DNA of 64,000 bases from Candidatus Woesearchaeota archaeon (GCA_043812195.1 JBDRML010000016.1:22093-86092), one strand, 5' to 3'; shown: positions 21,121 to 58,360, counted from the stretch's first letter. Notes: generated by a model not told the origin, from the sequence alone. Numbers and translations are program-made.

Positions 21121-21146
21121 TAAATCTGACAAAACTAAAAAGATAA

Positions 21147-25808: not shown

Positions 25809-25809
25809 T

Positions 25810-28775: not shown

Positions 28776-28777
28776 TT

Positions 28778-31080: not shown

Positions 31081-31089
31081 AAATAATAC

Positions 31090-32602: not shown

Positions 32603-32723
32603 AATTTAAAGAAATTTACAACCGTTTTTAAAGCTTATGGTGGCATTTTAAAGTGTATAAAAACCGAACATATAGTCTTTAATTACACATTATTTATAAA
32701 CAAAACCACTTTTCCAAAAATGA

Positions 32724-41208: not shown

Positions 41209-41892
41209 TTAAAATATTCCAACTAAATGGTAAACTAACTTAGTAGAAACAGCAATTGCATCATCATAATCAATAAATTCTAAGATAATACAGTCATTAT
41301 CTGTTAAATAAATCTGATTCTCATCCCCTTTCTCAAATAATATTATGGTTCTCCCATTACCAGAATCATCACATGTTCTTACAGGAATATCTATATCTTG
41401 TGTAAACTCATTCTCTTCAGTCAACGCACTAATAGTATTTATCTTAAAAACAGCAGGCTCAACACCAGTACTTAATATTCTCTGAGCAGTCAATATAGCA
41501 ATTGCCATTTTTCCATCTGATTCAATATCAAGATCAACATCTCTAGTAATATAAATATTCTTAGTTTTAGACTTATTAAATATTAAATCATTTATAGTAT
41601 CATCTAAAGGGATACCTTCTAACTCTTCAGGACCATATTCAAAGGGAACCTTATACTCCTTTCTAAATTGAGGTACATTATTAACTGTTCTATAATCAAT
41701 CCAAAAAGATACTATATGTATCGGTTTTCCAGTATGTTTATCTACACTTATATTATATTCAATCCCATCAGCCCCAAGATAGCTATACTCATAGGAAATT
41801 CTAGATAAAGTAGGCACAAAAATAACTATTAAAAGTAAAACAACTAAAACAATAATACCTATTGTTATATTTCTTCCCTGTTTTTTATCCAT
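41209..41892 (-). CDS. membrane-anchored extracellular protein (N-terminal TM), paralog of 41895..42395 in its C-terminal Cys-loop region
   Basis: N-terminal MDKKQGRNITIGIIVLVVLLLIVIF; C-terminal CDDSGNGRTIILFEKGDENQIYLTDNDCIILEF similar to DCDGDNFVVVLDSSADEDFYLEDNCIFING. Confidence 0.4.
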   Translation of the reverse strand: MDKKQGRNITIGIIVLVVLLLIVIFVPTLSRISYEYSYLGADGIEYNISVDKHTGKPIHIVSFWIDYRTVNNVPQFRKEYKVPFEYGPEELEGIPLDDTINDLIFNKSKTKNIYITRDVDLDIESDGKMAIAILTAQRILSTGVEPAVFKINTISALTEENEFTQDIDIPVRTCDDSGNGRTIILFEKGDENQIYLTDNDCIILEFIDYDDAIAVSTKLVYHLVGIF

Positions 41893-41894
41893 TT

Positions 41895-42395
41895 TTAAAC
41901 AATAATCCCGAATACAACGTAAGCGAGAAAGTCTATTCCTTTATTAAGATTTCCATTAATAAAAATACAATTATCTTCCAAATAAAAATCTTCATCAGCA
42001 GACGAATCTAATACAACCACAAAATTATCCCCATCACAATCAATAATAGGTAATGTGCTGTTATCATCCAAACTACCAAATTGACTAATTATACCAGCAG
42101 AAGTAAAAACATCTCTCAATCTGGCTCCCTGATACCCATTACTTTTATCAACAACATAAATCAAATTGCCTTTAATATCTATAGGACCCATATCTTCTAC
42201 TTCACTTGGCAAATATGTAAAAGTTTGATAAGAATTAGTTCTTGAAACAAAAGTGGCCCATCCTTGATCAGTTTGTTGAAATTTATATCCGTTGTATTTT
42301 TCAGAACCACCCCCACTATAAATAAATCCCAAAGTACTCATTACCATTATAAATATAATAAAAAGAGCTGCAAACAGATTTTTAGATTTTTTCAT
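41895..42395 (-). CDS. secreted/membrane-anchored small protein with C-terminal Cys-x(~20)-Cys loop
   Basis: Signal peptide MKKSKNLFAALFIIFIMVMS; downstream of the S-layer-like gene in the same orientation. Confidence 0.4.
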   Translation of the reverse strand: MKKSKNLFAALFIIFIMVMSTLGFIYSGGGSEKYNGYKFQQTDQGWATFVSRTNSYQTFTYLPSEVEDMGPIDIKGNLIYVVDKSNGYQGARLRDVFTSAGIISQFGSLDDNSTLPIIDCDGDNFVVVLDSSADEDFYLEDNCIFINGNLNKGIDFLAYVVFGIIV

Positions 42396-42477: not shown

Positions 42478-44685
42478 TTACACTATTTGTTCTGTTCCAG
42501 TTAGGCCACTAGCTGCTACACTACTTGCTGCTCTTGCAGTATCTGCTTTCTCCCATCCAGCTACAATCAATGCCATCTTATCGCCATCTTCCATTAACTT
42601 AATAACGGCTGTATCTGCTGCGATTCCAGAAGCACTTTCACAAGCTGGGTAAGTTAAGCTCATCCATTCTGCAGTTAAGCTATTAACACATGGTCCACCA
42701 ACAAGGATTAAATTGTTATAACCAGCTGCTCCAGATTCAGTTACAAGTACTGCTTCAACATTTGTTGCTGCTCCACCTTCATAAACTCCTACATTAGCTT
42801 TTACCTGATCACCAGGAATTTGTAATGTAAACAAGTCGTTGTCTCCAGAAGAATCAGTTTCATCTGCCCTGATACCATATCCAGTTAACAAGTCATATTT
42901 CTTAGCTCCAACCATTACTCTTTCTACAGCAGTTGCAGTTGCACTTGGTGCCAATGTTGCTCCCCATACAACTTCAGTACTTTCAGAGTTATCTGTAGTT
43001 CCAAATCCTAGATAGTTACCAGCTGTAGCGTTTGTAGATTGTATTCTCCACCATAAGTTATCATTCACATCAGTTGCGTTATCTGGAATAATCCCTAAAT
43101 ACCATGCGTCATCTGCACCAATATCTCCGTATGATCCAAAAACCATATCTGTAGATTTAGTATTTCTGTAGTTCACATATCCCCATGCAGTATAATTAGC
43201 ATTATTAGATATATTTCCTGCGTGTTGCACCTTGTTATCTGAGTCTGTATAGAAGATTAAAGTTCTTCCTACATCCCTATCTGCTGTAGCAGAATTATTT
43301 CCAGCAAAAGTGGTATTAGTCCATAAAAAAATCTCGTCTGTTTTTATATCAGATGTTATCTTTGCTGTACCTGCAGCCTCTATTGCACTTTGATCAAGCA
43401 CCAATCCCTCATTTTCATCAGACACTATAGAAATAACAATAGCTGCGCTTGGGAAAAGTCCTGCATTGGTAAGATCTTCTGTATTTTGACTATCTGTATA
43501 AATTTGTACCTGCATATAGTCATCATCAGCCACATTGAAGTCTTTAACTCCTATGTAAGCATATCCCTCTGGCAATCCATAATACTCTCCAGTTCCAGCA
43601 GGGTCTTTATTATAGTTATATGCTTCAAAGTCGTTTTCTATACAAACCTCATTAAAAGATCCAGATGCTCCAGATGTCAAAGCTCCTGCTTGCAATCCCT
43701 TAATATCCCAAACCCAATCAGGATTATTCTTATCACAATCAGGATCACCATGTGCGTCACTTGGAGAACAATATGTAGGATACTTATCTCCATCTTTATA
43801 AGTTACTCTAGCGTCTTCACCAATCACGAATGTTGCAACTGCTTCAGCTGCAGTACCAACACCAGCTATAGCAGAGTCCAAATAAACATCGATTTCTCCT
43901 TCAGAAACTGTAGAACCTTCACTAATTGTTCTCTGGTCATTTCCAAAATCAATAATAGCACTAGTTCCATCTACAGCAACTACTTCCATTGTTATTCCAT
44001 TACCAGAGTATACTTCTCCTGTGTGTCCAACCCAAGTATCACCAACTTGTGCAGTAAAAGATGAGTTGCTTGCAATAGCGTCAACTCTTAATGTCTTTCC
44101 TAAAAACATCATATCAAATGGATTTGAAGTACTAACTATTCCACTCACATTAATATGTTCATCAAAAGTATAACAATACTTAATTGCATCTTTTCTAATC
44201 TCTAACTTAGGATCCCATTCATACTTATCATCACTACTTGTTAGACTAGTTTCCATATCAAAGTTATTAGCAGTAGCTGTTATTTGAAGTTCATGATGGT
44301 AATCATAACTTGTTCCAGCAATACTCACTTCTGCATCATCAAAGATAGCAGAATCTGAGTCATCATAAATTGTATCCAAACCAGTACTTGTTGCAATGTT
44401 ATCTTGTAATTTAATTTCTTCTATCTGAATTAAATCCCCTAGACCTGCAGCTTCAGCTGTAGCTAAACCATCAAAATATGTTTTCAAAGTGCTTCTTGCA
44501 GCGTCATCATTTGTTCCAGCAGCGCTACCTACAACCATTGCAGTATCTACATAAGAATCACTTACAATAAATGGCGCAGGTAAATCAGCTAAAGTTTCTC
44601 CAGCTGCGAATGCGCCCCCGAAAGCAGACAATAACATTAGTCCACCAGCACCAGCTGCTGCTACTTTTTTAATTATTCGTTTCAT
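42478..44685 (-). CDS. large secreted acidic Thr/Ser/Ala/Gly/Asp-rich protein, candidate S-layer or major surface protein
   Basis: Signal peptide MKRIIKKVAAAGAGGLMLLSAFGGAFAAGE; 735 aa, no TM, low-complexity acidic composition; gene visibly more GC-rich than its surroundings. Confidence 0.5.
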   Translation of the reverse strand: MKRIIKKVAAAGAGGLMLLSAFGGAFAAGETLADLPAPFIVSDSYVDTAMVVGSAAGTNDDAARSTLKTYFDGLATAEAAGLGDLIQIEEIKLQDNIATSTGLDTIYDDSDSAIFDDAEVSIAGTSYDYHHELQITATANNFDMETSLTSSDDKYEWDPKLEIRKDAIKYCYTFDEHINVSGIVSTSNPFDMMFLGKTLRVDAIASNSSFTAQVGDTWVGHTGEVYSGNGITMEVVAVDGTSAIIDFGNDQRTISEGSTVSEGEIDVYLDSAIAGVGTAAEAVATFVIGEDARVTYKDGDKYPTYCSPSDAHGDPDCDKNNPDWVWDIKGLQAGALTSGASGSFNEVCIENDFEAYNYNKDPAGTGEYYGLPEGYAYIGVKDFNVADDDYMQVQIYTDSQNTEDLTNAGLFPSAAIVISIVSDENEGLVLDQSAIEAAGTAKITSDIKTDEIFLWTNTTFAGNNSATADRDVGRTLIFYTDSDNKVQHAGNISNNANYTAWGYVNYRNTKSTDMVFGSYGDIGADDAWYLGIIPDNATDVNDNLWWRIQSTNATAGNYLGFGTTDNSESTEVVWGATLAPSATATAVERVMVGAKKYDLLTGYGIRADETDSSGDNDLFTLQIPGDQVKANVGVYEGGAATNVEAVLVTESGAAGYNNLILVGGPCVNSLTAEWMSLTYPACESASGIAADTAVIKLMEDGDKMALIVAGWEKADTARAASSVAASGLTGTEQIV

Positions 44686-45039: not shown

Positions 45040-45990
45040 ATGAATTTAGAAGTAAGAAATGTTGGGAAAAAGAAAAAGTATTATTTAGCTCACTCATTCA
45101 GAGAAGGAAAAAAAGTAAAGAAAATAAGAAGATATTTAGGCTCAAATCTAAATAAAATTCAACTAGAAAAACTAAAAGAAAGATCAGAAGAAATCATAAA
45201 GCAACAAATAGAAAACTATAAGATCATAGCAGATCCATTAAAACACGAATTAACAGAAAAAGAATTAGAATTCCTAAAAAATTTAGAAACAAAAGGAAAA
45301 ATAGAAATAAAACATCTTTCCAAAGAGCAATGGACTAAATTCACAGAGCTTTTTACATATAACACAAATGCCATTGAAGGCTCTGAAGTAAATCAAAAAG
45401 AAGTTAAAGAAATTTTAGAAGAAAACAAATGGCCAAAAGAAGTAGATAGGGAAGATATTTCAGAAACATACGGGGTAGCAGAAGCAATTGAATTCATAAG
45501 AAAAACAAAAGAACATATATCCCTTTCCTTGATTAAAAAAATACACCAAATAATTTTCAAAAATTCCAAATCATTTGCAGGGAAATTTAGAACCAAAGGT
45601 ATTGAAGTAGCTATTAGGGATAAATTAGGAAATATAGCCCATATAGGGGCTCCTGCCAATAGAATTAGAGGATTATTAGAAGAACTAATAGATTGGCATA
45701 ATAAAAATAAGAATAAATATCCCCCAATACTATTAGCCGCTGTTGTTCATAATCAATTTGAAAATATCCACCCTTTTCAAGATGGCAATGGGAGAGTGGG
45801 AAGGCTATTGTTAAATAATATTTTATTAAAAAATAACCTGCCTCCAGTAAATATAAGTCTTGGAAATAGAAGAGAATATTATTCAACTCTACAATCTTAT
45901 CAAAAAAAAGGAGACATAAAACCCACAATTAAATTGATTTTAAAAGAATATAAAGAATTAAAGAAAGAATTAGGTGTCTACAAAAATTAA
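45040..45990 (+). CDS. Fic/Doc family protein (AMPylation/phosphocholination-type)
   Basis: Canonical Fic motif HPFQDGNGRVGRLL. Confidence 0.85.
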   Translation: MNLEVRNVGKKKKYYLAHSFREGKKVKKIRRYLGSNLNKIQLEKLKERSEEIIKQQIENYKIIADPLKHELTEKELEFLKNLETKGKIEIKHLSKEQWTKFTELFTYNTNAIEGSEVNQKEVKEILEENKWPKEVDREDISETYGVAEAIEFIRKTKEHISLSLIKKIHQIIFKNSKSFAGKFRTKGIEVAIRDKLGNIAHIGAPANRIRGLLEELIDWHNKNKNKYPPILLAAVVHNQFENIHPFQDGNGRVGRLLLNNILLKNNLPPVNISLGNRREYYSTLQSYQKKGDIKPTIKLILKEYKELKKELGVYKN

Positions 45991-45992
45991 TG

Positions 45993-46005
45993 ATGTAGTC
46001 ACCCA
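45993..46005 (+). repeat. 13-bp direct repeat ATGTAGTCACCCA (right copy)
   Basis: Seen directly. Confidence 0.55.
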
Positions 46006-46008
46006 ACA

Positions 46009-46043
46009 TCAAAACATTATTTTTTACAAATTACAACATAAAA
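46009..46043 (+). repeat. copy 2 of the 33-35 bp repeat family
   Basis: caaaacattattttttacaaattacaacataaaac. Confidence 0.6.
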
Positions 46044-46052
46044 CTCAAATGC

Positions 46053-47330
46053 CTATAACAACCATTTCCACAAAGAAATATATTTTATCTTTTTACCATT
46101 AATTCTCTCTTCACCATCCTTATCATTGGTTATAATAACTAAATTATTGCATTTAAGCTCTATACTCGCTTTCAATAATGATTTAATCTCTCTGCTTTTC
46201 GTATTTTCACTTTCAATATCATAGCATACCTGAATTAGTTCTTTAATCTTTAATCCTTCCTTAACAACAAAATCAACTTCATTTTGTTGATGGTCCTTCC
46301 AATAATAAACTTCAGTATTAATTTTATCGTTTTTGAACTTTCTTCTTAATAATTCTATAACGACTATATTTTCGAATAATTTACCATTATCTTTCGACAA
46401 CCTAAAACTAACAAAATTGCAGAATCCATGATCAACAGAATAAACCTTTTTAGGAGCAATTATTTGCTGTTTCAATTTATTTGAATATCTTTCCAAAACT
46501 ATTATCAAAAAAGCTTCCTTTAAATAATTAACATAGTTTTTAATCGTATGAGGATCTTTTATATTAAATATTTTAGAAAGTTTTGAATATGTAAATTCAC
46601 TAGAAAAATTGCTTATGAGATAGCTAGAAAGTTCTCTAAAAGTGCCTTTTTTTTCAATAGCATATCTTCTCAAACAATCTTTGTTTATTATATCCTCGTA
46701 AATTCTCACAACCATATTTGAGCCAAACTTTGCAAATTCAGGAAATCCGCTGCCATGAAGATACTTATTAAACTCCCGCCTTATTTTGGCGCGATCTTCA
46801 GTTGCATAAATATTAGGCTTAAAGCTTAATGTTTCTTTAAATGAAAACGGATATAAAACAAAATCTATGTATCTGCCAGTTAAATGAGTAGCTAACTCAC
46901 CGGATAATAATTTAGAATTACTGCCGGTTATAATAACTTTCTTGCTTCTTCTAAGCCTTGTCGCAAATAATTCCCAGCCAGTTACATTTTGAATTTCATC
47001 CAAAACTACAAGGTCTATATCACCATACATTTCATAAAATGCTTCCAATATTTTATTCAAATCAGATGTCTTGACATTAATCAGCCTTTCATCGTCAAAG
47101 TTTATATAAGCAAAATTTTGTTTTAATTCTTTTGATAAAATCAGAGAAAAAATAGACTTTCCGCTTCTTCTAACACCAAGTATAGCAAGTATATTAGGAT
47201 ACTTAAGATATTTTTTCTCGTAGTCTATGAGCTCTCTTTCTACTATTTTCTCTTCACTAAATTTCTTTTCCAGCTCTCTCCTTTGGTCTTCTATTATCCT
47301 TTTTAGTATCTCTAATTGCATAGGAATCAA
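46053..47330 (-). CDS. AAA+ superfamily ATPase with DUF4143-like C-terminus (COG1373-type predicted archaeal ATPase)
   Basis: P-loop GVRRSGKS; Walker B LVVLDEIQ; 425 aa. Confidence 0.7.
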   Translation of the reverse strand: MIPMQLEILKRIIEDQRRELEKKFSEEKIVERELIDYEKKYLKYPNILAILGVRRSGKSIFSLILSKELKQNFAYINFDDERLINVKTSDLNKILEAFYEMYGDIDLVVLDEIQNVTGWELFATRLRRSKKVIITGSNSKLLSGELATHLTGRYIDFVLYPFSFKETLSFKPNIYATEDRAKIRREFNKYLHGSGFPEFAKFGSNMVVRIYEDIINKDCLRRYAIEKKGTFRELSSYLISNFSSEFTYSKLSKIFNIKDPHTIKNYVNYLKEAFLIIVLERYSNKLKQQIIAPKKVYSVDHGFCNFVSFRLSKDNGKLFENIVVIELLRRKFKNDKINTEVYYWKDHQQNEVDFVVKEGLKIKELIQVCYDIESENTKSREIKSLLKASIELKCNNLVIITNDKDGEERINGKKIKYISLWKWLL

Positions 47331-47534: not shown

Positions 47535-47569
47535 AAACATTTATTTTTCACAAATTACAACATAAAATT
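47535..47569 (+). repeat. copy 4 of the 33-bp repeat, overlapping the true 3' end of pilin-like gene 47541..47951
   Basis: aaacatttatttttcacaaattacaacataaaatt. Confidence 0.6.
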
Positions 47570-47951
47570 CAAACTCTCCAGACCTTCTAAAAGATTCAGA
47601 ATTAATGCCTAAAAAACAATCTCCAACTCTAATTTCTTCACCACTACTGCATTCCATTACAAATCCAGAATCCTCATCAACAAAATTCATATTCCCAGAT
47701 ACAAAATTTCTCAATGTATTACAATCAACTTCTTCACCCAAACAACAACTAGTTGCTAAATCTCCAAAATTAGTTCCGCTAACATCAGCTTTAGCCAAAG
47801 CATTAGCAAAATTATACGCTTTATTATTCAAATAAACATTCCTATCATCTCCTCCACTCCTAGAAAACAATAAAGCAAACAACCCAATAAACACAACTAA
47901 CAAAACAATAATAACCAATCCAAATGTTTCTATTTGTCCTTTTTTAAACAT
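47541..47951 (-). CDS. class III signal peptide (archaeal type IV pilin-like) protein
   Basis: N-terminus MFKKGQIETFGLVIIVLLVVFIGLFALLF: basic residues, G-Q processing motif, hydrophobic helix. Confidence 0.5.
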   Translation of the reverse strand: MFKKGQIETFGLVIIVLLVVFIGLFALLFSRSGGDDRNVYLNNKAYNFANALAKADVSGTNFGDLATSCCLGEEVDCNTLRNFVSGNMNFVDEDSGFVMECSSGEEIRVGDCFLGINSESFRRSGEFEFYVVICEK

Positions 47952-48396
47952 ACCTCTCTACCTCCAGAACACCAACATAATACTTCTCATCCCATGCATT
48001 ATACACACTAACAGGACTAGTTATTTTTCTTATTCCAGTATAACTTGATAATTTATTATCATACAAAACTAAAGTATCAGCAGAAACTTTCAATGTAATT
48101 TTCTTATAACCGAACAAATTCTTATAATATTCATTATCACTCACATCAGCAAAAGCTCTTGCCTTATAAAAATCAATACTTCCTTTTTGATCTCCTCTAA
48201 CAGAATAACTCAATTCAGGCATACTAGGAACAAAACTAATCATATCTTCAAATTTATCTTCTTGATACTTCTCATTTAGATTCTCAATAGATCTAATTTG
48301 AAATTGATAAAACAAAACAAAACCAATCAATAAAATAACCACAACTATAAATATAACAAATCCTGTTTCCTGTATTTGTAATTGTCCTTTTTTCAT
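47944..48396 (-). CDS. class III signal peptide (pilin-like) protein
   Basis: MKKGQLQIQETGFVIFIVVVILLIGFVLFY. Confidence 0.5.
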   Translation of the reverse strand: MKKGQLQIQETGFVIFIVVVILLIGFVLFYQFQIRSIENLNEKYQEDKFEDMISFVPSMPELSYSVRGDQKGSIDFYKARAFADVSDNEYYKNLFGYKKITLKVSADTLVLYDNKLSSYTGIRKITSPVSVYNAWDEKYYVGVLEVERYV

Positions 48397-49217
48397 TAAT
48401 AAATTACCTCACAACCATGATTATCCAAAGCCTCATTCAAACTAATAATTGAATTAATATTATCATCTCTTAAAGCACCTATAATTTGTCCATATTCAGC
48501 ACATTTACTTCCAAAATATTGTGCCTTCTTGATATAAAGTTCTTTCAAACTATTCTTCCTTTCTTCTAAATAATTCTTACTACATTCAAAAACATCCGGA
48601 CTTGAAAACATCGCACCATAAACAAAAACATTATCTCCATTATAATTAAAATATTTATCTTCATTAACATACCAAATCTGATTTCCATTAAAAGCTATAA
48701 CTTTTTTATTAGGATTAGGTTCAGCACCTCCAAAATAAACCAAAACATCAGCATTCCCTTCACTAGTTATTTTCAATTCATTAGGTATCTCATCCATAAA
48801 TTCTTCATTAACACCAGAAAAATAAAATTTCAAATCAGAATTCCATAAATAAACCACAGTATCAATCAAATAAGGTTTTTCATAATTCTGACTCCACATA
48901 CTAAAAGGACCTTCGCTTTTATCTTCAACAAAGATTACACTACTAGATTCAATAGACTGATCTTCATTAATATACATCCTCTCACAATTATATTCTAAAA
49001 CAAAATCTGAAAAATCTTCTCCAAAAACTTTATACTGAGAAATTCCTTTAGCACCCAAAATAGAACTATCCAAAGCCCTTACAATCTTACCATTTTCTTT
49101 ACTCTGCTCTAAATCAATATATCTTACACTAAAGAATGCAAAAAATATTAAAAACAACGCACCAGCAATAATAACAAAAATCCAATTAAACTGAATGCCC
49201 TGACCTCTTTTTTCCAT
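48396..49217 (-). CDS. class III signal peptide (pilin-like) protein, larger (273 aa), possible minor pilin or adhesin
   Basis: MEKRGQGIQFNWIFVIIAGALFLIFFAF. Confidence 0.45.
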   Translation of the reverse strand: MEKRGQGIQFNWIFVIIAGALFLIFFAFFSVRYIDLEQSKENGKIVRALDSSILGAKGISQYKVFGEDFSDFVLEYNCERMYINEDQSIESSSVIFVEDKSEGPFSMWSQNYEKPYLIDTVVYLWNSDLKFYFSGVNEEFMDEIPNELKITSEGNADVLVYFGGAEPNPNKKVIAFNGNQIWYVNEDKYFNYNGDNVFVYGAMFSSPDVFECSKNYLEERKNSLKELYIKKAQYFGSKCAEYGQIIGALRDDNINSIISLNEALDNHGCEVIY

Positions 49218-49322
49218 AACCTAAATTCAGAATTATTATTTAAATAGATTGTGTTAAGGTAAAAACCCAAAGGTTTATATATATTAACGTATTTATGTTT
49301 TTTAACGTAAGGAGGTTTAAAA

Positions 49323-49565
49323 ATGGTGAGCATCACATTATCTGTCCCAGAAGAAATTAAAAAAAGCATGGAAACATTTTCAGAAATAAACTGGTCTGGA
49401 TTTGTCAGAAAATCCATCATAGAAAAAACACAAGAACTAACAAAAAAAGAAGAGTTATTAAAAGAATTAGAAAAAGAAAAAGATATAATAGATTGGTCTG
49501 TAAAACTTCAAAGAGTATCAAGGAAAGGAAGATTCCAAGATTTAAAAAAGAAGGGATTAATATGA
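49323..49565 (+). CDS. ribbon-helix-helix (CopG-like) antitoxin
   Basis: MVSITLSVPEEIKKSMETFSE... beta-strand/helix pattern of RHH antitoxins; stop overlaps the PIN gene start (ATGA). Confidence 0.45.
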   Translation: MVSITLSVPEEIKKSMETFSEINWSGFVRKSIIEKTQELTKKEELLKELEKEKDIIDWSVKLQRVSRKGRFQDLKKKGLI

Positions 49566-49990
49566 AATTGGTAACTGATACAAACATATTATTCACTTTT
49601 TTCTGGAAAAACTCCTATACAAGAAAATTATTCATAAATCAAGATTTAGAATTAATATCTCCAGAATTCGCTTTAGAAGAAATAAAAAAATATTCCGAAG
49701 AAATAATTAGAAGAGCAAAAATATCAAAAAAAGAATTTCAGGATATCAGAAAAGAACTCGCTCTTATGGTTGAATTTATACCTTTAAAAGAATATTCAGA
49801 ATATTTAAAAAAAGCATCAGAAATTTCTTATGATAAAGATGATGTTGATTTTATTGCTTTAGCTTTAAAACTAAAATCCCCCATATGGTCTAATGATAAA
49901 GAATTTAAGAAACAAAATAAAATTAAAGTTTACTCTACTCTAGAAGTTTTAAAAGAATTAAACTATGGATCAATTAATAATGAAAAGTAA
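49562..49990 (+). CDS. PIN-domain toxin (VapC-like)
   Basis: Start moved to in-frame ATG at 49562: MKLVTDTNILF ... DFIALALKLKSPIWSNDKEF (PIN acidic residues). Confidence 0.55.
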   Translation: MKLVTDTNILFTFFWKNSYTRKLFINQDLELISPEFALEEIKKYSEEIIRRAKISKKEFQDIRKELALMVEFIPLKEYSEYLKKASEISYDKDDVDFIALALKLKSPIWSNDKEFKKQNKIKVYSTLEVLKELNYGSINNEK

Positions 49991-50121
49991 AAAAATGCCA
50001 GAAAATCCTTTAAAAGATTGTTTAGGAATTCTAAAAAAAGATAAAGAATGGGAAGAATTAGAAAAAAATCTAAAAATAGATTGGAAAAATTTTAACGAAA
50101 AATTAAAAAGGACTTAAAGGA

Positions 50122-50613
50122 TTAAATATGTTCCGCTAATACTAATTCTCCTTTATTAGTAAATCTAATGTCAATTTTATTATCAATTAAGTTATCACAT
50201 AATGGATTCAAACCTTCAATATAAATTCTTTCGAATTCTTTAGATCTTAATTTCTCATCAGCAAAAAACACATTTTCATCTTGAAAACCAGAATAAGACA
50301 AATTAATAAATTCTCTCAAATTAAAATTATTAACCAAACTTAAATCAATTTCACTATTTCTATCAATAATACAAATTTCAGAAATACTATTTGGAATATT
50401 AATATTTTCTAAAGACATTATACTTCCAAAACTATCATGATAAACCTTACTTTCAACTTCCTCTATATCACTAACAAATCTTTGATACTCAACTTCCTGT
50501 CCAGTATTTATAACATTAATAATAGCTTTCACTCCAAAAAATAAAATAATAGCAGCAACTATCAAAAGAAAAATATACACAAAAGGTTGCCCCATTAATT
50601 GTCCTTTTCTCAT
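50122..50613 (-). CDS. class III signal peptide (pilin-like) protein
   Basis: MRKGQLMGQPFVYIFLLIVAAIILFFGV; start overlaps the end of the giant gene. Confidence 0.5.
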   Translation of the reverse strand: MRKGQLMGQPFVYIFLLIVAAIILFFGVKAIINVINTGQEVEYQRFVSDIEEVESKVYHDSFGSIMSLENINIPNSISEICIIDRNSEIDLSLVNNFNLREFINLSYSGFQDENVFFADEKLRSKEFERIYIEGLNPLCDNLIDNKIDIRFTNKGELVLAEHI

Positions 50614-53600
50614 CTTGGATAAACTGTAAATGGATTAGTATTCTTATTGTCCCATTTATCTAAACACTTAATATAATAAACATCTTCACCTAAAGAAGCA
50701 TAGTGTTCTTTCTCGTTTCTAGCAGAAATCATAGTAAAGACTGTATCTTCATTTTCATCCTGCACATCAAAGTTATCTTTCTCACTACTATATTTACATA
50801 CACTTTCTTCATTCATCAAAACATGTAATTGCTGACTTGTTGTCCAAACTCTTAATAAAATAGGAGCATCTAAGTCCTTGAATATAACTATAGTTCTTTC
50901 TTCCTGCACCACATTACCAGCAAAATCAGTACACTCATATAAAACAGGATAATGCAGACCTTCAGGAGTTCCTTCAATATCTTCATGTAAAGTCTTATGT
51001 GTTCTTGAAAACAAAGTAGTTACATTATACCAATTATCTCCTATCTGATATTTACATATAGCATCATTTCCTGTTTCAATCTCAATTTCAAATTTATCAT
51101 CATATGTTTCAAATGTTGCATTAGGCTCAATAATATCCATTTCAAATGTTGGCCAAATCATTGCAGTCCATAAGTAAGGATCTTCCATAACATTAGATTC
51201 CTCCCCAATATCAGGTACATCTCCACATTTAATCCATAATGGACAGAAAGTACTATTAAATGGTTTTGTAATTCCATTACCTTCAGGTATATTAATTTCT
51301 TCACACCAGCCAGCTTCTCCTAAATTAAACTCAGTTTGGAATTTCTGGCAAGTTTCATCAGTCTGACTACATGGAGTATTTCCTTTACCACCAAAGCTTG
51401 TCATATCTCCATAATTCAAAGTATCATTATCCTTAGAATATTTACAATCTTGAACATTATTCTTATCATAAGCATACAATATAAATGGAATATTTGTAGT
51501 TCCTTCAGGTACATTAATATTCACAGGATTAATATAATCAATAATTGGAGGCAATTCATCAGGAGCCTCTTTAAAACTAAAACTCACATAATCTTTATCT
51601 TCTTTATTAGTATTTCCAGCTATATCTTGGCATTTAATATAAATATAAGTTTTGTCTCTAACTTTATCTTCAGCTCTAAATGTAATATTCACTCCATGAT
51701 CAGCAGATGCACCCCATGGGAATGAAGTCATATCATCATATTCAGTACTTCTAGCAAAACTATATTTACAATGTCCTATTTCACTAGTATTTATTTTTAG
51801 AAGAGTATAAGAAGTTTCCCATTCAATTTTATCACTAATTTCTAATTTTCTTCCTTCACCCTTAAATTCTTGTATTGTTAAATTATCTTCACCCTTAAAT
51901 TCAATCTCTATAGATTCTAAATAAGGGGAACTATGATCATCAGGCTCAGAAGGCAAACACAATCCTCCAACAACCCCATTTTCTTCAAAAGGAACATAAC
52001 TACACCAATCACTCTCAGCTCCTAAAATCTTACATCTCTTTTCAGTGCAATCCCATTGTCCTTCTAATCCACACTCAGCACAATGAATATTATCAGTATA
52101 TGGTTTCTCCGGAATACATTCTCCTGTTTTAAATGAGGTTGTTACAGTATAAATTGAAGCTATATATGATGCTATAATCAAAATCTTACTAACAGCCTGA
52201 GAAGAAATTTTACCAAATAAACCACCACTAGAAACTTCACCACCTTCAAGAGTATAAGCAACCCCTTCAACACTTTGTGTCACTTGTAAATTAAATTTTA
52301 CTAATGGAGAAATCATATTAGGAGCAATCTTAGAAAATACAATAGTTAAAACATTAGCAGCAGCAGAATAATAGAATGAATTAGGAAATTTTCTATCAGA
52401 ATCAATACCACTAGCCTCAAATATTTCATTTTTTTCTTCTTCGCTCAAAATCTTATCTAAATGGTTAGCCCAAGATAAGATATAAGATAATCTCAATTTA
52501 TCATTATAATATAAATCTCCAGCATCTTTCGGAGTATCGTGTGTACCTGTAGCAGCAGTATAACCATAAACAATAGATAAAACACCCCAATATATTACCG
52601 CACCAAGCGACATAAATCCACCAACAACACCAGACGCACATGCAGCCCACCCTGGGAACCCAACACCAGGAAGTGCAGCAACAACACCACAAACTGCAAT
52701 CATAGATCCCATTGTACCTACAGCAATTGCTCCAGTAGTTGCAAGCCCTGCTGTTGAAAAACCATCAGCTTCGAACTGGCAATCTCCTAAAGCATTACAC
52801 TCAAAATCAGTACAAACATTTACAGAACCATCGCCACCTTTTCCACACTGGCTACATCTATTTCCTGAATCACCATATCCTTCAGCTCCTTCACCAGGAG
52901 GATACAAAGCATTACAACTTCCAATTGGTGCCCAAACATCCCTATCATAACCTTCCTCTTGCATTAAAGGTCCACCACCACAATTACCAAAATCAGAACA
53001 TTTATCTTGATTATTAAACCACCCATTATCATCAGTACATTGTTTGCCAACAACATTAGCTAAAAATTGTCCAACACCTGGCGCATAATTAAAAAAATCA
53101 ATCACAGAACGCCCATCTCCACAATCCTTATGACATTTTTCCCAGGCATTATCAACCAAATCAGCCTCTACCCTTGTTAAATTTCCAATCTTAGTTACAG
53201 ATTCTTCACATCTCATTCCCCTATTTTTATCATCATAATCAGGTTCTATTTCTCTATTCTGGCATGTTAACACATAATTATGCAATCCAGTACTTTTTCT
53301 ATCATTCAAAAAATGTCCAGAAAGAACATTCATACAAATAGACTCTCCACTTTTAAAAGTATTTGGCCATGTATTAGGAGAATCTTCAACACAATCAGTA
53401 CTTAAACAAACCGCATCTTCACCACCAACCACATTATCAGGGTCATCACACATTCCACCAGGCCTGCATTCATCAAATATTTCTTCTCTATTTCCATCAG
53501 AATCATAATAATAAACATCCCACTTATCATCATCAGTAGTTCCATCGCCGCAGCTTTTAAACTTATGACCTTCTCTATAACTAGGACACCCAACAACTTC

Positions 53601-54221
53601 AGAACATAAAGTACTTTCAAAGAAATTAGCCCTTTCAAATCCAGGAGCATCTTTAAATCTATCTAAAGGACCATATTCACAAACTCCACCACCCGCACTC
53701 TTATAACATCCAGTTACAGAACCAGAACATTCTAAATTACAATCTTGTCTATTTGTAATTCCACCAATAAATTGTTCGCCACCTAAATCAGTTCTACAAA
53801 CTTTTTCTTCTTGAACACTACAAGAACCAAATTGTATGCAACATCCAGATTGACAAGCACTAACAGATTCCTTAGAAGCACCTAAATGAAAAGTGCCGCC
53901 ATCTGTTTTACATCTAACTTCTTCAACATTATCTAAACAACCACCAACATCAGAAGGGACACATGCACCTTTTTGACACTCATTTATTTCTCCTTTAGTC
54001 TGAAAATTCCATTCATGCCCTCCTGCACATCCACCATAAGCATCCCAACCTTGTCCATTAGAAACTTCAACACAATAATCTCCATTATTAGTTAAACCGC
54101 AAGTATCAACATTAGCAGCTGAAACTTCTTCAGTATTTAAAACCAAAGCAAAATTAATAACAGCTACAATCATTATAACTGAGAAAAATACAGCAATTGA
54201 TTTTCTAATAGCATATTTCAT
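50610..54221 (-). CDS. giant (1203 aa) cysteine-rich secreted/polytopic surface protein of unknown function
   Basis: Signal peptide MKYAIRKSIAVFFSVIMIVAVINFALVLNTEEVSAA; ~480-aa Cys-rich ectodomain; central Gly/Ala-rich hydrophobic block (~aa 490-690, 2-4 TM helices); ~500-aa C-terminal domain with further Cys pairs. Confidence 0.6.
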   Translation of the reverse strand: MKYAIRKSIAVFFSVIMIVAVINFALVLNTEEVSAANVDTCGLTNNGDYCVEVSNGQGWDAYGGCAGGHEWNFQTKGEINECQKGACVPSDVGGCLDNVEEVRCKTDGGTFHLGASKESVSACQSGCCIQFGSCSVQEEKVCRTDLGGEQFIGGITNRQDCNLECSGSVTGCYKSAGGGVCEYGPLDRFKDAPGFERANFFESTLCSEVVGCPSYREGHKFKSCGDGTTDDDKWDVYYYDSDGNREEIFDECRPGGMCDDPDNVVGGEDAVCLSTDCVEDSPNTWPNTFKSGESICMNVLSGHFLNDRKSTGLHNYVLTCQNREIEPDYDDKNRGMRCEESVTKIGNLTRVEADLVDNAWEKCHKDCGDGRSVIDFFNYAPGVGQFLANVVGKQCTDDNGWFNNQDKCSDFGNCGGGPLMQEEGYDRDVWAPIGSCNALYPPGEGAEGYGDSGNRCSQCGKGGDGSVNVCTDFECNALGDCQFEADGFSTAGLATTGAIAVGTMGSMIAVCGVVAALPGVGFPGWAACASGVVGGFMSLGAVIYWGVLSIVYGYTAATGTHDTPKDAGDLYYNDKLRLSYILSWANHLDKILSEEEKNEIFEASGIDSDRKFPNSFYYSAAANVLTIVFSKIAPNMISPLVKFNLQVTQSVEGVAYTLEGGEVSSGGLFGKISSQAVSKILIIASYIASIYTVTTSFKTGECIPEKPYTDNIHCAECGLEGQWDCTEKRCKILGAESDWCSYVPFEENGVVGGLCLPSEPDDHSSPYLESIEIEFKGEDNLTIQEFKGEGRKLEISDKIEWETSYTLLKINTSEIGHCKYSFARSTEYDDMTSFPWGASADHGVNITFRAEDKVRDKTYIYIKCQDIAGNTNKEDKDYVSFSFKEAPDELPPIIDYINPVNINVPEGTTNIPFILYAYDKNNVQDCKYSKDNDTLNYGDMTSFGGKGNTPCSQTDETCQKFQTEFNLGEAGWCEEINIPEGNGITKPFNSTFCPLWIKCGDVPDIGEESNVMEDPYLWTAMIWPTFEMDIIEPNATFETYDDKFEIEIETGNDAICKYQIGDNWYNVTTLFSRTHKTLHEDIEGTPEGLHYPVLYECTDFAGNVVQEERTIVIFKDLDAPILLRVWTTSQQLHVLMNEESVCKYSSEKDNFDVQDENEDTVFTMISARNEKEHYASLGEDVYYIKCLDKWDNKNTNPFTVYPR

Positions 54222-55054
54222 TCTTCAATTATAAAGTGAAATCTTAAAGCTTCACCATCCTCCTCATCTTCATATCCTTCTAAATACCACGGCTTAAATC
54301 CTTCATCATTAGGACCATTTGCAATTGAAGCAGCTAAAATATCTCCCCCTTGCTCATGATCCCACACATAATCATCAATTTCAAATCCTTCTCCACCACA
54401 TTCTCCATTCACAACATCAATAGCAATCATATAAATGTCAAACAAATTAGAATCCAAATCAATAGATAAATCTCTAAAATCAGTGCTATAACCAGATTTA
54501 CTTATTTTAACTGGAAAACTAACATCCTGTCTTATTTTTTTAGGTAAAATATCAGGAGCATCTAAATTCAATTTTAAAAATTCATAATCTAAATCCAAAC
54601 CTTCTCTTTCAAATTCTACAAAAGAACTACCAATACAATTCTCCAAATCTTCTCTCTGCTCAGCACTATTCATAAATAACTTTATCTGTTTAGCAACATT
54701 AAAAAGCAAAGGCAATGTATTTGCATCACCTTTACAAGCATAACCAATACTTATATTTTCAAAACATTCTTCAGAATTTAAATCATAATCAACACACACA
54801 TTTTCATAATAAACAGGATTGTAAAATCCACCTTGCCAAGAAACTAATCTAACACCTTCCATCAGCTTAGAACTCACACAATTTCTAACAACATTCTTAA
54901 TAGGTTCAACTCTAGCAGAAACAAATCTCTCAGCTTCTTCATCATCTAAATCTCCTTTAAATATAGTATCTCTAAAAAAGAATAAAAGCCCAACTATAAT
55001 TAAAACAACAATACCCAGAATAATAAAAATTGTTACTTGACCTCTTTTATTCAT
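54218..55054 (-). CDS. class III signal peptide (pilin-like) protein, 278 aa
   Basis: MNKRGQVTIFIILGIVVLIIVGLLFF; end overlaps the giant gene start. Confidence 0.5.
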   Translation of the reverse strand: MNKRGQVTIFIILGIVVLIIVGLLFFFRDTIFKGDLDDEEAERFVSARVEPIKNVVRNCVSSKLMEGVRLVSWQGGFYNPVYYENVCVDYDLNSEECFENISIGYACKGDANTLPLLFNVAKQIKLFMNSAEQREDLENCIGSSFVEFEREGLDLDYEFLKLNLDAPDILPKKIRQDVSFPVKISKSGYSTDFRDLSIDLDSNLFDIYMIAIDVVNGECGGEGFEIDDYVWDHEQGGDILAASIANGPNDEGFKPWYLEGYEDEEDGEALRFHFIIEE

Positions 55055-55267
55055 TATTAACTTAAAAACAAGATAGAAACTTATAAACTTTTCCTTTTAT
55101 TAGTTTACGACATAAATAAAATATAAAAACTATTAAAGATTTTTCCATTATTTAACACCTTAAGCTATTTCTAAGATATATTAATATAACTTACTTTTGT
55201 CCAGTAACTATATCAATCTTGAAACTATTAATAATTAGAAAAAACAAGATTTATAATATTTAATTAT

Positions 55268-55609
55268 TCACCTACCTTCTGCCCCTATCACAATTTTATT
55301 TCCAATTTTTGTTATAGATATTTCAGTATGCTCATCCAATTTAAGTTGTTTTTCTAAGTCACTGGGTATTCTAAATGTTAAACCACCCCCGCTTTTTGAC
55401 AGATGTCTATAAAGCTTTAACGGCTCAGGCCAAACACCTAATTTTCTTGCTACTTCAATTGTTTTTTGTGTTTCTTCTTCAAAAGGGAACTCTTCATTAC
55501 AATTAATACATCTCTCCCCCTTAACTATAAACACATAACCTTCAATTTCTAATACTATATCCTCTACTTTTATTAAATTTCCTTTCTCACATGTTAGACA
55601 TTTTCTCAT
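55268..55609 (-). CDS. putative antitoxin: YgiT/MqsA-type zinc ribbon + AbrB/SpoVT-like C-terminal domain
   Basis: CLTCEKG...CINCNEE zinc-ribbon pattern; C-terminal GGGLTFRIPSDLEKQLKL...ISITKIGNKIVI swapped-hairpin-like. Confidence 0.4.
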   Translation of the reverse strand: MRKCLTCEKGNLIKVEDIVLEIEGYVFIVKGERCINCNEEFPFEEETQKTIEVARKLGVWPEPLKLYRHLSKSGGGLTFRIPSDLEKQLKLDEHTEISITKIGNKIVIGAEGR

Positions 55610-55848
55610 TTTCCTTCAGCTCCAGTTATTATGAAAATTTCTTTATAATCCTCATCCTTTATAAATATTAATTTCCTACTTTTTCTTTTTGTCCTCATAT
55701 ATGCCTCATATTTATTTTTGCCAACTTTGTCAATCTTATACGCATTCTCCAATGCATTTTTTAGTGAATAAATATCATAATCCCACTTTCTCATCCATGT
55801 TAAAATAAAATGCTTGCTTGGTCTAATTTTGTAGTTACTTATGTCCAT
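55606..55848 (-). CDS. putative toxin, DUF4258-like (RelE/BrnT fold)
   Basis: 80 aa; HFILTWMRKWDYDIYSLKNALENA...KLIFIKDEDYKEIFIITGAE resembles DUF4258; 4-nt overlap with the downstream gene. Confidence 0.35.
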   Translation of the reverse strand: MDISNYKIRPSKHFILTWMRKWDYDIYSLKNALENAYKIDKVGKNKYEAYMRTKRKSRKLIFIKDEDYKEIFIITGAEGK

Positions 55849-57994: not shown

Positions 57995-58360
57995 TTATTT
58001 AACAAATTCAACATTATCAAGATTTTCAAACTCTTTATCTCCTGTAACAAACTTCCATTTCCTATTTATTGATATAGCATATCCCAAACAATCTATATAA
58101 CTAAATTTTTTTGGTTTAAATTTAGATTTTAATTTTGAAGCAAGTTTTATATCTTCTATGTCAAATGATATTAAAAGTTCTTTAAATTTTTCAGTTATTT
58201 CATCCGCTTTTCCCTCTCCAAAAGATTTAAGAATAGCATTATGTAACTCTAAAAGATTAAGTAATGATGTAAAATTTATAGTGTCCTTAAACTTTTCATA
58301 ATTATTATTTTCCTTAACAATTTCAATTAATGCATAAGTGTCTAAGAGATATTCTTCCAT
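57995..58360 (-). CDS. vapC: PIN-domain toxin VapC
   Basis: MEEYLLDTYALIEIVKEN... N-terminal Asp; 121 aa; overlaps the upstream AbrB-type antitoxin gene by 19 nt. Confidence 0.5.
   Translation of the reverse strand: MEEYLLDTYALIEIVKENNNYEKFKDTINFTSLLNLLELHNAILKSFGEGKADEITEKFKELLISFDIEDIKLASKLKSKFKPKKFSYIDCLGYAISINRKWKFVTGDKEFENLDNVEFVK

What the first reader, a model, noticed from the sequence alone, without database searches (positions are those of the whole stretch)
47541..55054. Cluster of five class III (pilin-type) signal-peptide proteins built around a 1203-aa cysteine-rich giant protein, with no pilus machinery in sight
Five minus-strand genes (47541, 47944, 48396, 50122, 54218) all start M-[KRFN]-[KR]-[KR]-G-Q followed by a ~20-residue hydrophobic helix. 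That is the processing signature of archaeal type IV pilins and archaellins, which are cleaved by PibD/FlaK-type prepilin peptidases. They flank and translationally overlap (4-nt overlaps at both ends) a 3.6-kb gene for a Cys-rich secreted protein. Sizes of 136-278 aa are larger than structural pilins, suggesting minor pilins or tip adhesins. No FlaI/PilB ATPase, FlaJ/PilC platform or peptidase gene lies within 64 kb. Either this is a satellite adhesin cassette served by machinery elsewhere, or a pilin-fold surface-display system. In a small-genome archaeon such a locus is a prime candidate for host-cell or surface attachment.
Basis: partly seen in the sequence, partly recalled or inferred. 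Interest (0 to 1): 0.85.

Follow-up and report, generated by a model that had tools for sequence, protein, structure and literature searches.

The report
Pilin-like proteins around giant envelope protein
A tiny-genome archaeon (Woesearchaeota) carries a strictly conserved, unannotated gene cluster: five proteins with pilin-type signal sequences around a giant cysteine-rich membrane protein, next to the S-layer gene, which makes it a likely cell-surface or host-contact device, although no pilus motor is nearby.

Summary
Five minus-strand genes begin M-x-[KR]-[KR]-G-Q followed by a hydrophobic helix. They are the only 5 of 363 ORFs in the window that do. Two of them overlap the ends of a 1203-aa, 58-Cys gene. 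The six-gene order holds in about 30 Woese-/Pace-/Nanoarchaeia MAGs, always after RpoL, signal peptidase I, TFS and PCNA, and before the S-layer gene. The [KR][GA]Q motif survives in 113 of 129 orthologues. The five families share nothing beyond the N-terminus.

The giant is not simply secreted. It has a Sec signal, a Cys-rich head, a central Cys-free hydrophobic region and an Ig/FN3-like tail. One lineage splits it into two genes at that centre.

No known pilin, archaellin or PDB profile matches any of the six proteins. No ATPase, platform or prepilin peptidase lies in the window or in 718 kb of related loci.

Best reading: prepilin-like (EppA-type, +1 Gln) membrane-helix proteins form an envelope complex with the giant. 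Protein A is its dedicated, translationally coupled partner. Processing is done by a peptidase encoded elsewhere. Cleavage, assembly and function are inferred, not shown.

Verdict: a new variant of a known kind, with moderately high interest.

The parts
54218..55054 (-). Protein A (278 aa): leader MNKRG|Q, a TM helix, a second long helix, then an alpha/beta ectodomain with 2 invariant Cys. It is the dedicated upstream partner of the giant.
   Evidence: ORF. Motif. AF2 gives pLDDT 89.7 and pTM 0.80, with helices 3-32 and 38-73. Its stop overlaps the giant's start in 23 of 25 loci. Homologues P0022-P0049 keep MNKRGQVTIFIILGIV. No Pfam, NCBIfam or PDB match.
50610..54221 (-). Giant protein (1203 aa, 58 Cys). 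Its parts are: Sec-type signal (cleavage about VSA|AN), Cys-rich beta-hairpin repeat head (about 36-455), a CxxCG 'knot' at 456, an uncharged Gly-rich hydrophobic region 487-560 plus 675-697 with a Cys-free variable loop, a second knot at 714, and 4-5 Ig/FN3-like domains (about 760-1203).
   Evidence: about 50 invariant Cys; AF2: C-terminal beta-sandwiches pLDDT 75-90, centre below 50; only generic Ig/FN3/cadherin/adhesin-stalk matches; 3459 representatives at E<=1e-3; central hydrophobic stretch in 114 of 128 members; split into two genes at the centre in L038.
50122..50613 (-). Protein B (163 aa): leader MRKG|QLMGQPF, a TM helix and an ectodomain with 2 invariant Cys. Its start overlaps the giant's stop.
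   Evidence: (overlap or a gap of at most 3 nt in 13 of 23 loci).
48396..49217 (-). Protein C (273 aa): leader MEKRG|QGIQFNW, a TM helix and an ectodomain with conserved Cys.
   Evidence: A TATA-like element lies about 27 nt upstream of its ATG.
47944..48396 (-). Protein D (150 aa): leader MKKG|QLQIQET, with an invariant Glu at +6 and no Cys.
   Evidence: C/D overlap or abut in 18 of 20 loci.
47541..47951 (-). Protein E (136 aa): leader MFKKG|QIETFGLVIIV, with an acidic residue at +3 and a Cys-rich C-terminal domain.
   Evidence: D/E overlap in 13 of 16 loci.
55081..55087 (-). TATA-like box (TTTATAA) about 30 nt upstream of the ATG of A. It suggests a leaderless or short-leader operon start for A-giant-B.
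   Evidence: Sequence read directly. This is inference only, because no archaeal promoter tool was available.
42478..44685 (-). S-layer protein (735 aa, Sec signal, S_layer_C). It is the conserved downstream neighbour of the cluster, about 200 nt after gene E in other genomes.
   Evidence: Pfam S_layer_C 1.1e-8. TIGR01564 weak match. Synteny. Spacing.
41209..42395 (-). Two abutting genes, H (166 aa, 41895-42395) and I (227 aa, 41209-41892). Both are N-terminally anchored, lack the G-Q motif, and always follow the S-layer gene.
   Evidence: No family match.

Best explanation
This is a vertically inherited cell-envelope module of Woese-/Pacearchaeota, not a pilus locus in itself.

Shown:
- Five non-homologous ectodomain proteins (A-E) each start with a 4-5-residue basic leader ending in Gly (or Ala), followed by Gln and a roughly 20-residue hydrophobic helix.
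- They are co-transcribed, and largely translationally coupled, with a giant polytopic membrane protein rich in conserved Cys (presumed disulfides).
- That protein has two large ectodomains (a Cys-rich head and an Ig-like tail) on either side of a hydrophobic, Cys-free centre.
- The set sits next to the S-layer gene in a housekeeping neighbourhood.

Inferred:
- A class III (prepilin) peptidase of the EppA/PibD kind, encoded elsewhere in the genome, cuts between Gly and Gln.
- The mature proteins stay in, or just above, the membrane through their pilin-like helices. They bundle into a short, pseudopilus-like or bindosome-like stem.
- Protein A is the only one without a polar residue near +5. 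It is always coupled to the giant, or in paralogous pairs to another large Sec-secreted protein. It docks its partner.
- The assembly presents the Cys-rich head and Ig-like stalk at the level of the S-layer, for adhesion to a surface or host cell.
For: - Motif specificity and conservation: 5 of 363 ORFs in the window, all in the cluster; 113 of 129 orthologues keep it; the N-terminal alignments are family-specific.
- The five families share only the N-terminal segment by profile-profile comparison. Bacterial minor pilins do the same (my own knowledge).
- Gly at -1 and Gln at +1 are the published signature of EppA substrates. M. maripaludis also has 200-299-aa pilin-like proteins and pilin genes at four or more separate loci (PMC3875500).
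- Epd-type loci carry at least 5 minor pilins, a PilY-like adhesin and S-layer-like proteins (PMC4858521).
- Invariant Cys pairs in the A, B, C and E ectodomains, together with the basic N-termini, fit an N-in/C-out topology.
- Synteny holds down to 23-30% identity of the giant, in 26 GTDB species genomes plus metagenome contigs.
- Gene overlaps support coupling: A/giant in 23 of 25 loci, and C/D and D/E in most.
- The A-giant pair is tandemly duplicated in L033.
- A-family proteins are coupled to other large Sec proteins in L037.
- Giant architecture comes, with gene fission at the hydrophobic centre.
- No conserved small-x-small motif follows the helices of A-E, which argues against signal peptidase I cleavage.
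Against: - No HMM for archaeal pilins or class III signals (PF04021, PF07790, archaellin, TIGR models) matches any of the five. None matches any of the 36 D/E family members scanned at E<=10 either.
- The +5 Glu conserved in EppA substrates is absent. Glu sits at +6 in D, an acidic residue at +3 in E, and there is none in A-C.
- In B, C and D the helix starts 5-7 residues after the putative cut.
- No peptidase, ATPase or platform gene was found in the window or in 718 kb of related loci.
- One paper states that T4P components are missing in DPANN genomes (bioRxiv 10.1101/2020.05.14.094862). Others report them (PMC6142677; bioRxiv 10.64898/2026.04.22.720090).
- Cleavage, complex formation and function are untested.
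- The centre of the giant model has low confidence (pLDDT below 50).
Confidence: 0.5

Rival explanations
1. This is a true pilus accessory set. A-E are minor pilins (one may be the major pilin), and the giant is a PilY1-like tip adhesin. A type IV filament motor (ATPase, TadC-like platform, EppA) encoded elsewhere in the genome assembles them into an extended filament.
For: - The composition mirrors Epd/'System 1' loci and the bacterial fimU-pilVWX-pilY1-pilE operon: about five pilin-like genes plus one non-pilin protein of roughly 1200 aa (PMC4858521; my own knowledge).
- The EppA-type +1 Gln is present (PMC3875500).
- System 1 is reported in DPANN (bioRxiv 10.64898/2026.04.22.720090).
- Nanoarchaeal ATPases were found without cognate pilins (PMC4858521).
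- Pilin genes are often unlinked from the machinery (PMC3875500, PMC4858521).
Against: - The giant has a conserved central hydrophobic region with ectodomains on both sides. It can be split into two separately anchored halves. It is therefore anchored in the cell's own membrane and cannot ride on a pilus tip.
- No beta-propeller or PilY1-like domain was found; only Ig-like arrays matched.
- There is no short (60-80 aa) Epd-type major pilin in the window.
- No machinery lies within 64 kb or in 718 kb of related loci.
- The housekeeping and S-layer context is constant, unlike mobile pilus loci.
Confidence: 0.22
2. The N-termini are ordinary uncleaved signal anchors (type II membrane proteins). 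The K/R-G-Q motif is a lineage-specific topogenic or translation-initiation feature. The six proteins form a membrane complex unrelated to type IV filament biology.
For: - No pilin HMM hit.
- No +5 Glu, and polar residues lie between the 'cut' and the helix in B-D.
- No peptidase was found nearby.
- The downstream proteins H and I use plain N-terminal anchors without G-Q.
Against: An uncleaved anchor gives no reason to keep Gly-Gln fixed at the same distance from Met in five non-homologous families across about 30 species. The allowed substitutions (Gly to Ala at -1) are those tolerated by prepilin peptidases (my own knowledge). The motif is absent from every other membrane protein in 2101 ORFs.
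Confidence: 0.13
3. This is an S-layer biogenesis or anchoring module. The giant and A-E form pillars or pores that tether or pattern the S-layer lattice, with H and I as additional anchors. Adhesion is not the primary role.
For: - The cluster is invariantly adjacent to the S-layer gene and to H/I.
- The S-layer protein has no C-terminal TM anchor (sequence read).
- S-layer-like proteins are recurrent partners of archaeal TFF loci and are proposed to prime the S-layer (bioRxiv 10.64898/2026.04.22.720090).
- Ig-like arrays also match an S-layer protein, HPI 8cka.
- The neighbourhood is housekeeping.
Against: - The S-layer gene has its own upstream spacer of about 200 nt and is not coupled to the cluster.
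- In divergent lineages A-giant pairs occur without an adjacent S-layer gene (L008, L035).
- A-family proteins also pair with an M23 peptidase and a 1960-aa protein. This points to display of varied cargo rather than lattice anchoring.
Confidence: 0.15

Closest known systems
Epd (EppA-dependent) type IV-like pilus system of Methanococcus maripaludis, also called archaeal T4P clade 1 or TFF 'System 1'
   Same: - Short leader ending in Gly with Gln at +1.
- Several (at least 5) pilin-like proteins of 130-300 aa with unrelated globular parts.
- A large non-pilin surface protein and S-layer-like proteins in the neighbourhood.
- Pilin genes can lie away from the motor (PMC3875500, PMC4858521).
   Different: - No ATPase, no two-gene platform, no EppA and no 74-aa major pilin at the locus.
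- No +5 Glu.
- No DUF361/PF04021 match.
- The large partner is a polytopic membrane protein with no PilY-like domain.
Bacterial minor-pilin/PilY1 priming complex (fimU-pilV-pilW-pilX-pilY1-pilE) and the T2SS pseudopilus tip (GspH-I-J-K)
   Same: - One operon with about five pilin-like genes that share only the N-terminal helix, plus a non-pilin protein of roughly 1200 aa with a Sec signal.
- One large pilin-like member lacks the charged residue in the helix, as GspK does.
- These comparisons rest on my own knowledge, supported here.
   Different: The domain of life and the sequences differ. The cut is Gly|Gln rather than Gly|Phe. The partner has TM segments and Ig-like arrays instead of a beta-propeller. 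There is no evidence of a filament.
Sulfolobus bindosome (class III signal peptide sugar-binding proteins assembled by the Bas system)
   Same: It is a precedent for large globular proteins with prepilin-type signals that become a structural part of the envelope beneath or at the S-layer, rather than a long pilus (cited in PMC3875500 and bioRxiv 10.64898/2026.04.22.720090).
   Different: There are no substrate-binding domains here and no adjacent ABC transporter or Bas genes. The partner is a giant Cys-rich protein.
Giant Ig-repeat surface adhesins (e.g. SiiE BIg domains, cadherin/FN3 ectodomains)
   Different: The match is generic to the fold. The N-terminal Cys-rich head, the two CxxCG knots and the central hydrophobic region have no known counterpart.

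Membership tests
Archaeal class III (prepilin-type) signal peptide proteins | Short basic leader ending in Gly/Ala at -1, at the extreme N-terminus | tested here: met
   Leaders are MKKG, MRKG, MFKKG, MEKRG and MNKRG. The motif is kept in 113 of 129 orthologues, with Gly to Ala among the exceptions.
Archaeal class III (prepilin-type) signal peptide proteins | Hydrophobic alpha-helical stretch of about 20 residues directly after the cut | tested here: met
   Hydropathy. AF2 helix 3-32 in A. In B, C and D the uncharged core starts 5-7 residues after Gln.
Archaeal class III (prepilin-type) signal peptide proteins | Cleavage by a PibD/FlaK/EppA-type aspartic peptidase | not testable with these tools
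   This needs a biochemical assay or N-terminal proteomics. No peptidase gene was seen in the window or in 718 kb of related loci.
EppA substrates (DUF361 / Pfam PF04021 Class_IIIsignal) | Gln at +1 | tested here: met
   Gln at +1 in all five window proteins and nearly all orthologues. The criterion comes from PMC3875500.
EppA substrates (DUF361 / Pfam PF04021 Class_IIIsignal) | Glu at +5 | tested here: not met
   Position +5 is Phe in A, Gln in B, Phe in C and Gln in D (D has an invariant Glu at +6). E has an acidic residue at +3.
EppA substrates (DUF361 / Pfam PF04021 Class_IIIsignal) | Match to the family HMM | tested here: not met
   No PF04021, PF07790 or archaellin hit at E<=1 for the five. 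None at E<=10 for the 36 D/E members. NCBIfam gave none.
Type IV filament (TFF/T4P) system | Secretion ATPase (FlaI/PilB/VirB11 family) in the locus | tested here: not met
   None among the window translations. A Walker A motif scan of 718 kb gave only an SRP54-type GTPase, an ABC ATPase and one short unidentified ORF.
Type IV filament (TFF/T4P) system | FlaJ/TadC/PilC platform protein in the locus | tested here: not met
   No such polytopic protein in the window. The polytopic proteins present look, by my reading of the translations (no HMM scan), like a flippase, glycosyltransferases, transporters and a SpoIIM-like protein; the last matches the position of a PF01944 gene in L001.
Type IV filament (TFF/T4P) system | The same components elsewhere in the genome | not tested
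   Only 64 kb of a 139.8-kb contig was available.
PilY1-like tip adhesin | C-terminal beta-propeller, with no membrane-spanning segments | tested here: not met
Type IV pilin fold | An alpha-1 helix packed on a beta-sheet, with structural similarity to solved pilins | tested here: inconclusive
Methanococcales-type S-layer protein (neighbouring gene 42478-44685) | S_layer_C domain and a Sec signal | tested here: met
   PF05124 at 1.1e-8, above the cut-off. The signal sequence was read.

The most novel reading that the evidence does not exclude
Woese-/Pacearchaeota may use prepilin-type signals without a dedicated filament motor, as a general way to anchor and present very large surface proteins. 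In this reading the A family is a pilin-like adaptor that is always translationally coupled to its cargo: the giant here, and an M23 peptidase or a 1960-aa protein elsewhere. The giant's Gly-rich hydrophobic centre, flanked by two Cys-rich (possibly disulfide) knots, would act at the contact site with a host cell (membrane insertion or bridging). That would make the module the long-sought attachment organelle of this uncultured lineage.
Probability: 0.15. Interest if true: 0.85.

Novelty: new variant of a known kind. Interest (0 to 1): 0.6.

Why it matters
Woese- and Pacearchaeota are among the most abundant uncultured archaea, yet how they build their envelope and attach to partners is unknown. 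This module is conserved in gene order across the lineage and sits beside the S-layer gene. The giant-protein family has at least 3459 clusters at 50% identity, and every named member is annotated 'hypothetical'.

Earlier censuses found secretion ATPases in nanoarchaea but could not find their pilins (PMC4858521). These five families are candidates that escaped HMM-based detection. If processing and assembly are confirmed, the cluster gives concrete targets for testing host attachment in DPANN archaea: antibodies, cryo-ET labelling and metaproteomic N-termini. It would also extend the range of uses of prepilin-type signals.

Tried and rejected
- A homologue search with the five proteins concatenated returned nothing. 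The candidate list was saturated at 8000, so one of three searches was wasted.
- An exact look-up of the window's giant in the contig index found no record, so the rest of the 139.8-kb contig could not be read.
- Pfam and NCBIfam scans of all six proteins, and of the D and E family members, gave only sub-threshold noise from TM helices.
- Profile searches against PDB sequences with the giant, A, B and E alignments found nothing meaningful.
- The afdb50 fold library was not available, so comparison with the M. maripaludis large pilin-like proteins was not possible.
- A viral origin is rejected. There is no relative in IMG/VR, and the housekeeping synteny is constant.
- The arCOG01314 'novel secretion system' (PMC5898192) was considered and rejected, because its MoxR ATPase, vWA and DUF4350 components are absent here.
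- The conserved 218-aa protein at 59144-59800 was checked as a possible peptidase. It has a single TM, so it is rejected.
- Motif scans for T2SSE-type Walker A and for GxGD peptidases in 718 kb of held loci gave no true hit.
- Literature searches found no description of this cluster.
Full report
**1. Source and observation**

The window is about 29% G+C. It comes from a Candidatus Woesearchaeota MAG: the 1203-aa protein is 100% identical to NCBI 'hypothetical protein ABIH25_01895', on a 139,779-bp contig.

Each begins with a 4-5-residue basic leader ending in Gly, then Gln, then a hydrophobic stretch:
- A, 54218-55054: MNKRG|QVTIFIILGIV
- B, 50122-50613: MRKG|QLMGQPFVYIF
- C, 48396-49217: MEKRG|QGIQFNWIFVII
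- D, 47944-48396: MKKG|QLQIQETGFVIF
- E, 47541-47951: MFKKG|QIETFGLVIIV

A and B overlap the two ends of the giant gene (50610-54221) by 4 nt each.

A regex for this N-terminal form hits exactly these five of 363 six-frame ORFs of at least 30 aa in the window.

**2. No pilus machinery in sight**

Reading every translation of the window shows the following around the cluster:
- a large glycan-biosynthesis region;
- an ABC transporter;
- surface proteins and several toxin-antitoxin pairs;
- the S-layer gene;
- housekeeping genes: PCNA, TFS, RpoL, archaeal signal peptidase I (TIGR02228, 1e-20), ScpB and eRF1.

There is no secretion ATPase, no FlaJ/TadC-like platform and no prepilin peptidase. A motif scan for T2SSE-type Walker A boxes and GxGD peptidase boxes over the window plus all 36 fetched loci (718 kb) found none. 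The rest of the genome could not be read.

**3. Conservation**

Homologues of the giant were placed on their contigs. A scan of one genome per GTDB species gave 26 further loci, all Woesearchaeota, Pacearchaeota or 'Nanoarchaeota' MAGs.

BLAST mapping of the window proteins onto all loci gives one order nearly everywhere:

RpoL - signal peptidase I - TFS - PCNA - A - giant - B - C - D - E - S-layer protein - H - I

Divergent loci (23-30% identity) keep at least the A-giant pair (L029-L035).

Gene spacing:

| Gene pair | Spacing |
|---|---|
| A / giant | overlap in 23 of 25 loci |
| giant / B | overlap or a gap of at most 3 nt in 13 of 23 |
| C / D | overlap or abut in 18 of 20 |
| D / E | overlap in 13 of 16 |
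| B - C spacer | 10-50 nt, with 431-1318-nt insertions in six loci |
| E - S-layer gene | about 200 nt |
| H / I | abut |

In this window the B-C spacer carries a VapBC-like pair. The units thus look like [A-giant-B], [C-D-E], [S-layer] and [H-I]. TATA-like boxes lie about 27-30 nt upstream of the ATGs of A and C (inference only).

**4. The N-terminal signal**

Across all loci, 113 of 129 members of the five families keep the strict [KR]-[GA]-Q motif plus helix. The exceptions change +1 or -2, and several members use Ala instead of Gly at -1.

The only six other hits in 2101 ORFs lie inside the same clusters.

The family alignments show very different but family-specific sequences right after Gln. 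Profile-profile comparison finds similarity only in the first 20-60 residues. So five unrelated ectodomains have kept the same Gly-Gln junction at the same distance from Met. This is hard to explain for an uncleaved anchor and is expected for a peptidase recognition site.

The published signature of substrates of the M. maripaludis pilin peptidase EppA is a 5-13-residue leader ending in Gly, Gln at +1 and Glu at +5. That organism also has pilin-like proteins of 200-299 aa and pilin genes at four or more separate loci (PMC3875500).

Here Gly(-1) and Gln(+1) are met. Glu(+5) is not: D has an invariant Glu at +6, E has an acidic residue at +3, and A-C have none.

No conserved small-x-small site follows the helices, so signal peptidase I is unlikely. 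Invariant Cys pairs in the ectodomains of A, B, C and E fit an outside location.

**5. Membership in known families**

- No Pfam or NCBIfam model for class III signals, archaeal pilins or archaellins matches the five proteins. None matches any of 36 D/E orthologues at E<=10.
- NCBI names all of them 'hypothetical protein'.
- Profile searches against PDB sequences are empty.
- AlphaFold2 of A with 27 sequences is confident (pLDDT 89.7, pTM 0.80). It shows helix 3-32, a short break, helix 38-73, then an alpha/beta domain.

The proteins are therefore pilin-like in their signal and N-terminal helix. They are not demonstrable members of any described pilin family.

**6. The giant**

The 21-sequence alignment shows about 50 invariant Cys. 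From N- to C-terminus the protein has:
- a Sec-type signal (…EEVSA|ANVDTC);
- tandem Cys-rich beta-hairpin modules (about 36-455);
- a CxxCG…C knot at 456;
- an uncharged Gly-rich stretch at 487-560 and another at 675-697, with a variable, Cys-free loop between them;
- a second, similar knot at 714;
- a beta-rich tail.

An exhaustive profile search finds 3459 representatives at E<=1e-3 and 899 at E<=1e-30. Most are 1000-1400 aa. The named ones all come from Woese-, Pace- or Nanoarchaeia and are all 'hypothetical'.

Of 128 long members, 114 have a central uncharged hydrophobic stretch. In 98 it lies inside the longest Cys-free gap. In locus L038 the gene is split into an N half and a C half exactly there, and the C half starts with its own hydrophobic segment.

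The simplest topology is both ectodomains outside, about four TM helices and a cytoplasmic loop (inferred). A protein of this kind stays in the cell's own membrane. This weighs against a tip adhesin on an extruded pilus.

**7. Protein A as a partner protein**

- The A-giant pair is the most conserved unit.
- It is tandemly duplicated in L033.
- In L037, two A-family proteins each overlap the start of a different large Sec-signal protein: a 670-aa Peptidase_M23 protein and a 1960-aa protein.
- A is also the only one of the five without any polar residue near +5.

This suggests, but does not prove, that A is an adaptor that docks a large secreted or membrane partner.

**8. Interpretation**

The best-supported reading (confidence about 0.5) is a constitutive envelope complex. 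Five prepilin-like proteins are processed by a class III peptidase encoded elsewhere. Their helices hold them in or just above the membrane as a short pseudopilus-like or bindosome-like stem. They associate with the giant, which presents a Cys-rich head and an Ig-like stalk at the S-layer.

Rivals:
- a true minor-pilin plus adhesin set for a filament motor elsewhere (0.22);
- an S-layer anchoring or patterning module (0.15);
- uncleaved signal anchors (0.13).

The literature is divided on whether such genomes have the motor. One preprint says T4P components are missing in DPANN (bioRxiv 10.1101/2020.05.14.094862). Others report two T4P systems in Nanoarchaeota (PMC6142677), 'System 1' in DPANN (bioRxiv 10.64898/2026.04.22.720090), and nanoarchaeal ATPases whose pilins could not be identified (PMC4858521). 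Scanning the full genomes for the peptidase, ATPase and platform is the decisive computation I could not run.

**9. Comparison and novelty**

In gene content the cluster works like an Epd-type archaeal pilus locus, or the bacterial minor-pilin/PilY1 operon, stripped of its motor. In envelope location it resembles the Sulfolobus bindosome.

It fails the HMM and +5 Glu criteria of the Epd pilin family, and the propeller and no-TM criteria of PilY1. I found no description of it. The nearest hint is a DPANN-specific 'secreted protein next to S-layer-like proteins' (cls.004306/NEQ255; PMC6393860), which I could not compare.

I rate it a new variant of a known kind, with interest 0.6. The module is lineage-wide, unannotated and testable. 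All functional claims remain inference.

Noticed in passing
window 49323-49990 (+): An RHH-like gene (80 aa) and a PIN_2 gene (165 aa, 5.6e-26) form a VapBC-like toxin-antitoxin pair. It is inserted on the opposite strand in the spacer between genes B and C. The same spacer carries 431-1318-nt insertions in six other genomes, so it is an insertion hot spot.
   Followed up: partly
window 45040-47330: A Fic-domain gene (45040-45990, +) and an AAA_14/DUF4143 ATPase gene (46053-47330, -) lie between gene E and the S-layer gene. Other genomes have only about 200 nt there. L002 has a Fic gene in the B-C spacer instead.
   Followed up: partly
window 55268-55848 (-): Two small overlapping genes lie between PCNA and gene A and are absent from the other loci: one of 113 aa with CxxC…CxxC, and one of 80 aa. 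They may be another toxin-antitoxin-like insertion. No Pfam match was found for the 113-aa protein.
   Followed up: no
window 37584-39593 (-): A 669-aa surface protein with 44 N-x-S/T sequons, a C-terminal TM anchor and an acidic Thr/Ser-rich stalk. It has no Pfam match. It shares the Ig-domain 'C-x-D-x-x-x-N' motif with the giant's tail, but with no significant BLAST similarity.
   Followed up: partly
locus L038 3001-6434: In this lineage the giant is split into two genes: a 568-aa N half and a 576-aa C half. The split falls exactly at the central hydrophobic region.
   Followed up: yes
locus L033 9120-19194: The A-giant pair is tandemly duplicated (A, giant, A', giant'), followed by B, C and D.
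   Followed up: partly
locus L037 550-12864: Two A-family pilin-like proteins (627 aa and 283 aa) each overlap the start of a different large Sec-signal protein: a 1960-aa protein and a 670-aa Peptidase_M23 protein. An M23 peptidoglycan endopeptidase in a DPANN archaeon could target bacterial cell walls.
   Followed up: partly
window 40062-40373 and 57995-58596: More toxin-antitoxin-like genes flank the conserved block: a ParE toxin (2e-5), and a gene that looks PIN-like by eye (no HMM scan) with a small upstream partner. The window is unusually rich in such modules for a small genome.
   Followed up: no
window 21000-35300: By eye, this is a nonulosonic-acid-type sugar pathway next to glycosyltransferases and a flippase: a NeuB-like synthase (29905-31080), a UDP-GlcNAc 2-epimerase-like gene (28778-29908) and a CMP-sugar synthetase-like gene (23046-23795). 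Together with the cluster, much of the window appears devoted to the cell surface. These genes were not scanned with HMMs.
   Followed up: no
window 59144-59800 (-): A 218-aa protein with a single N-terminal TM helix and no annotation. It is conserved directly after the GT2 glycosyltransferase in all related loci (called genes of 213-220 aa with no Pfam match).
   Followed up: no
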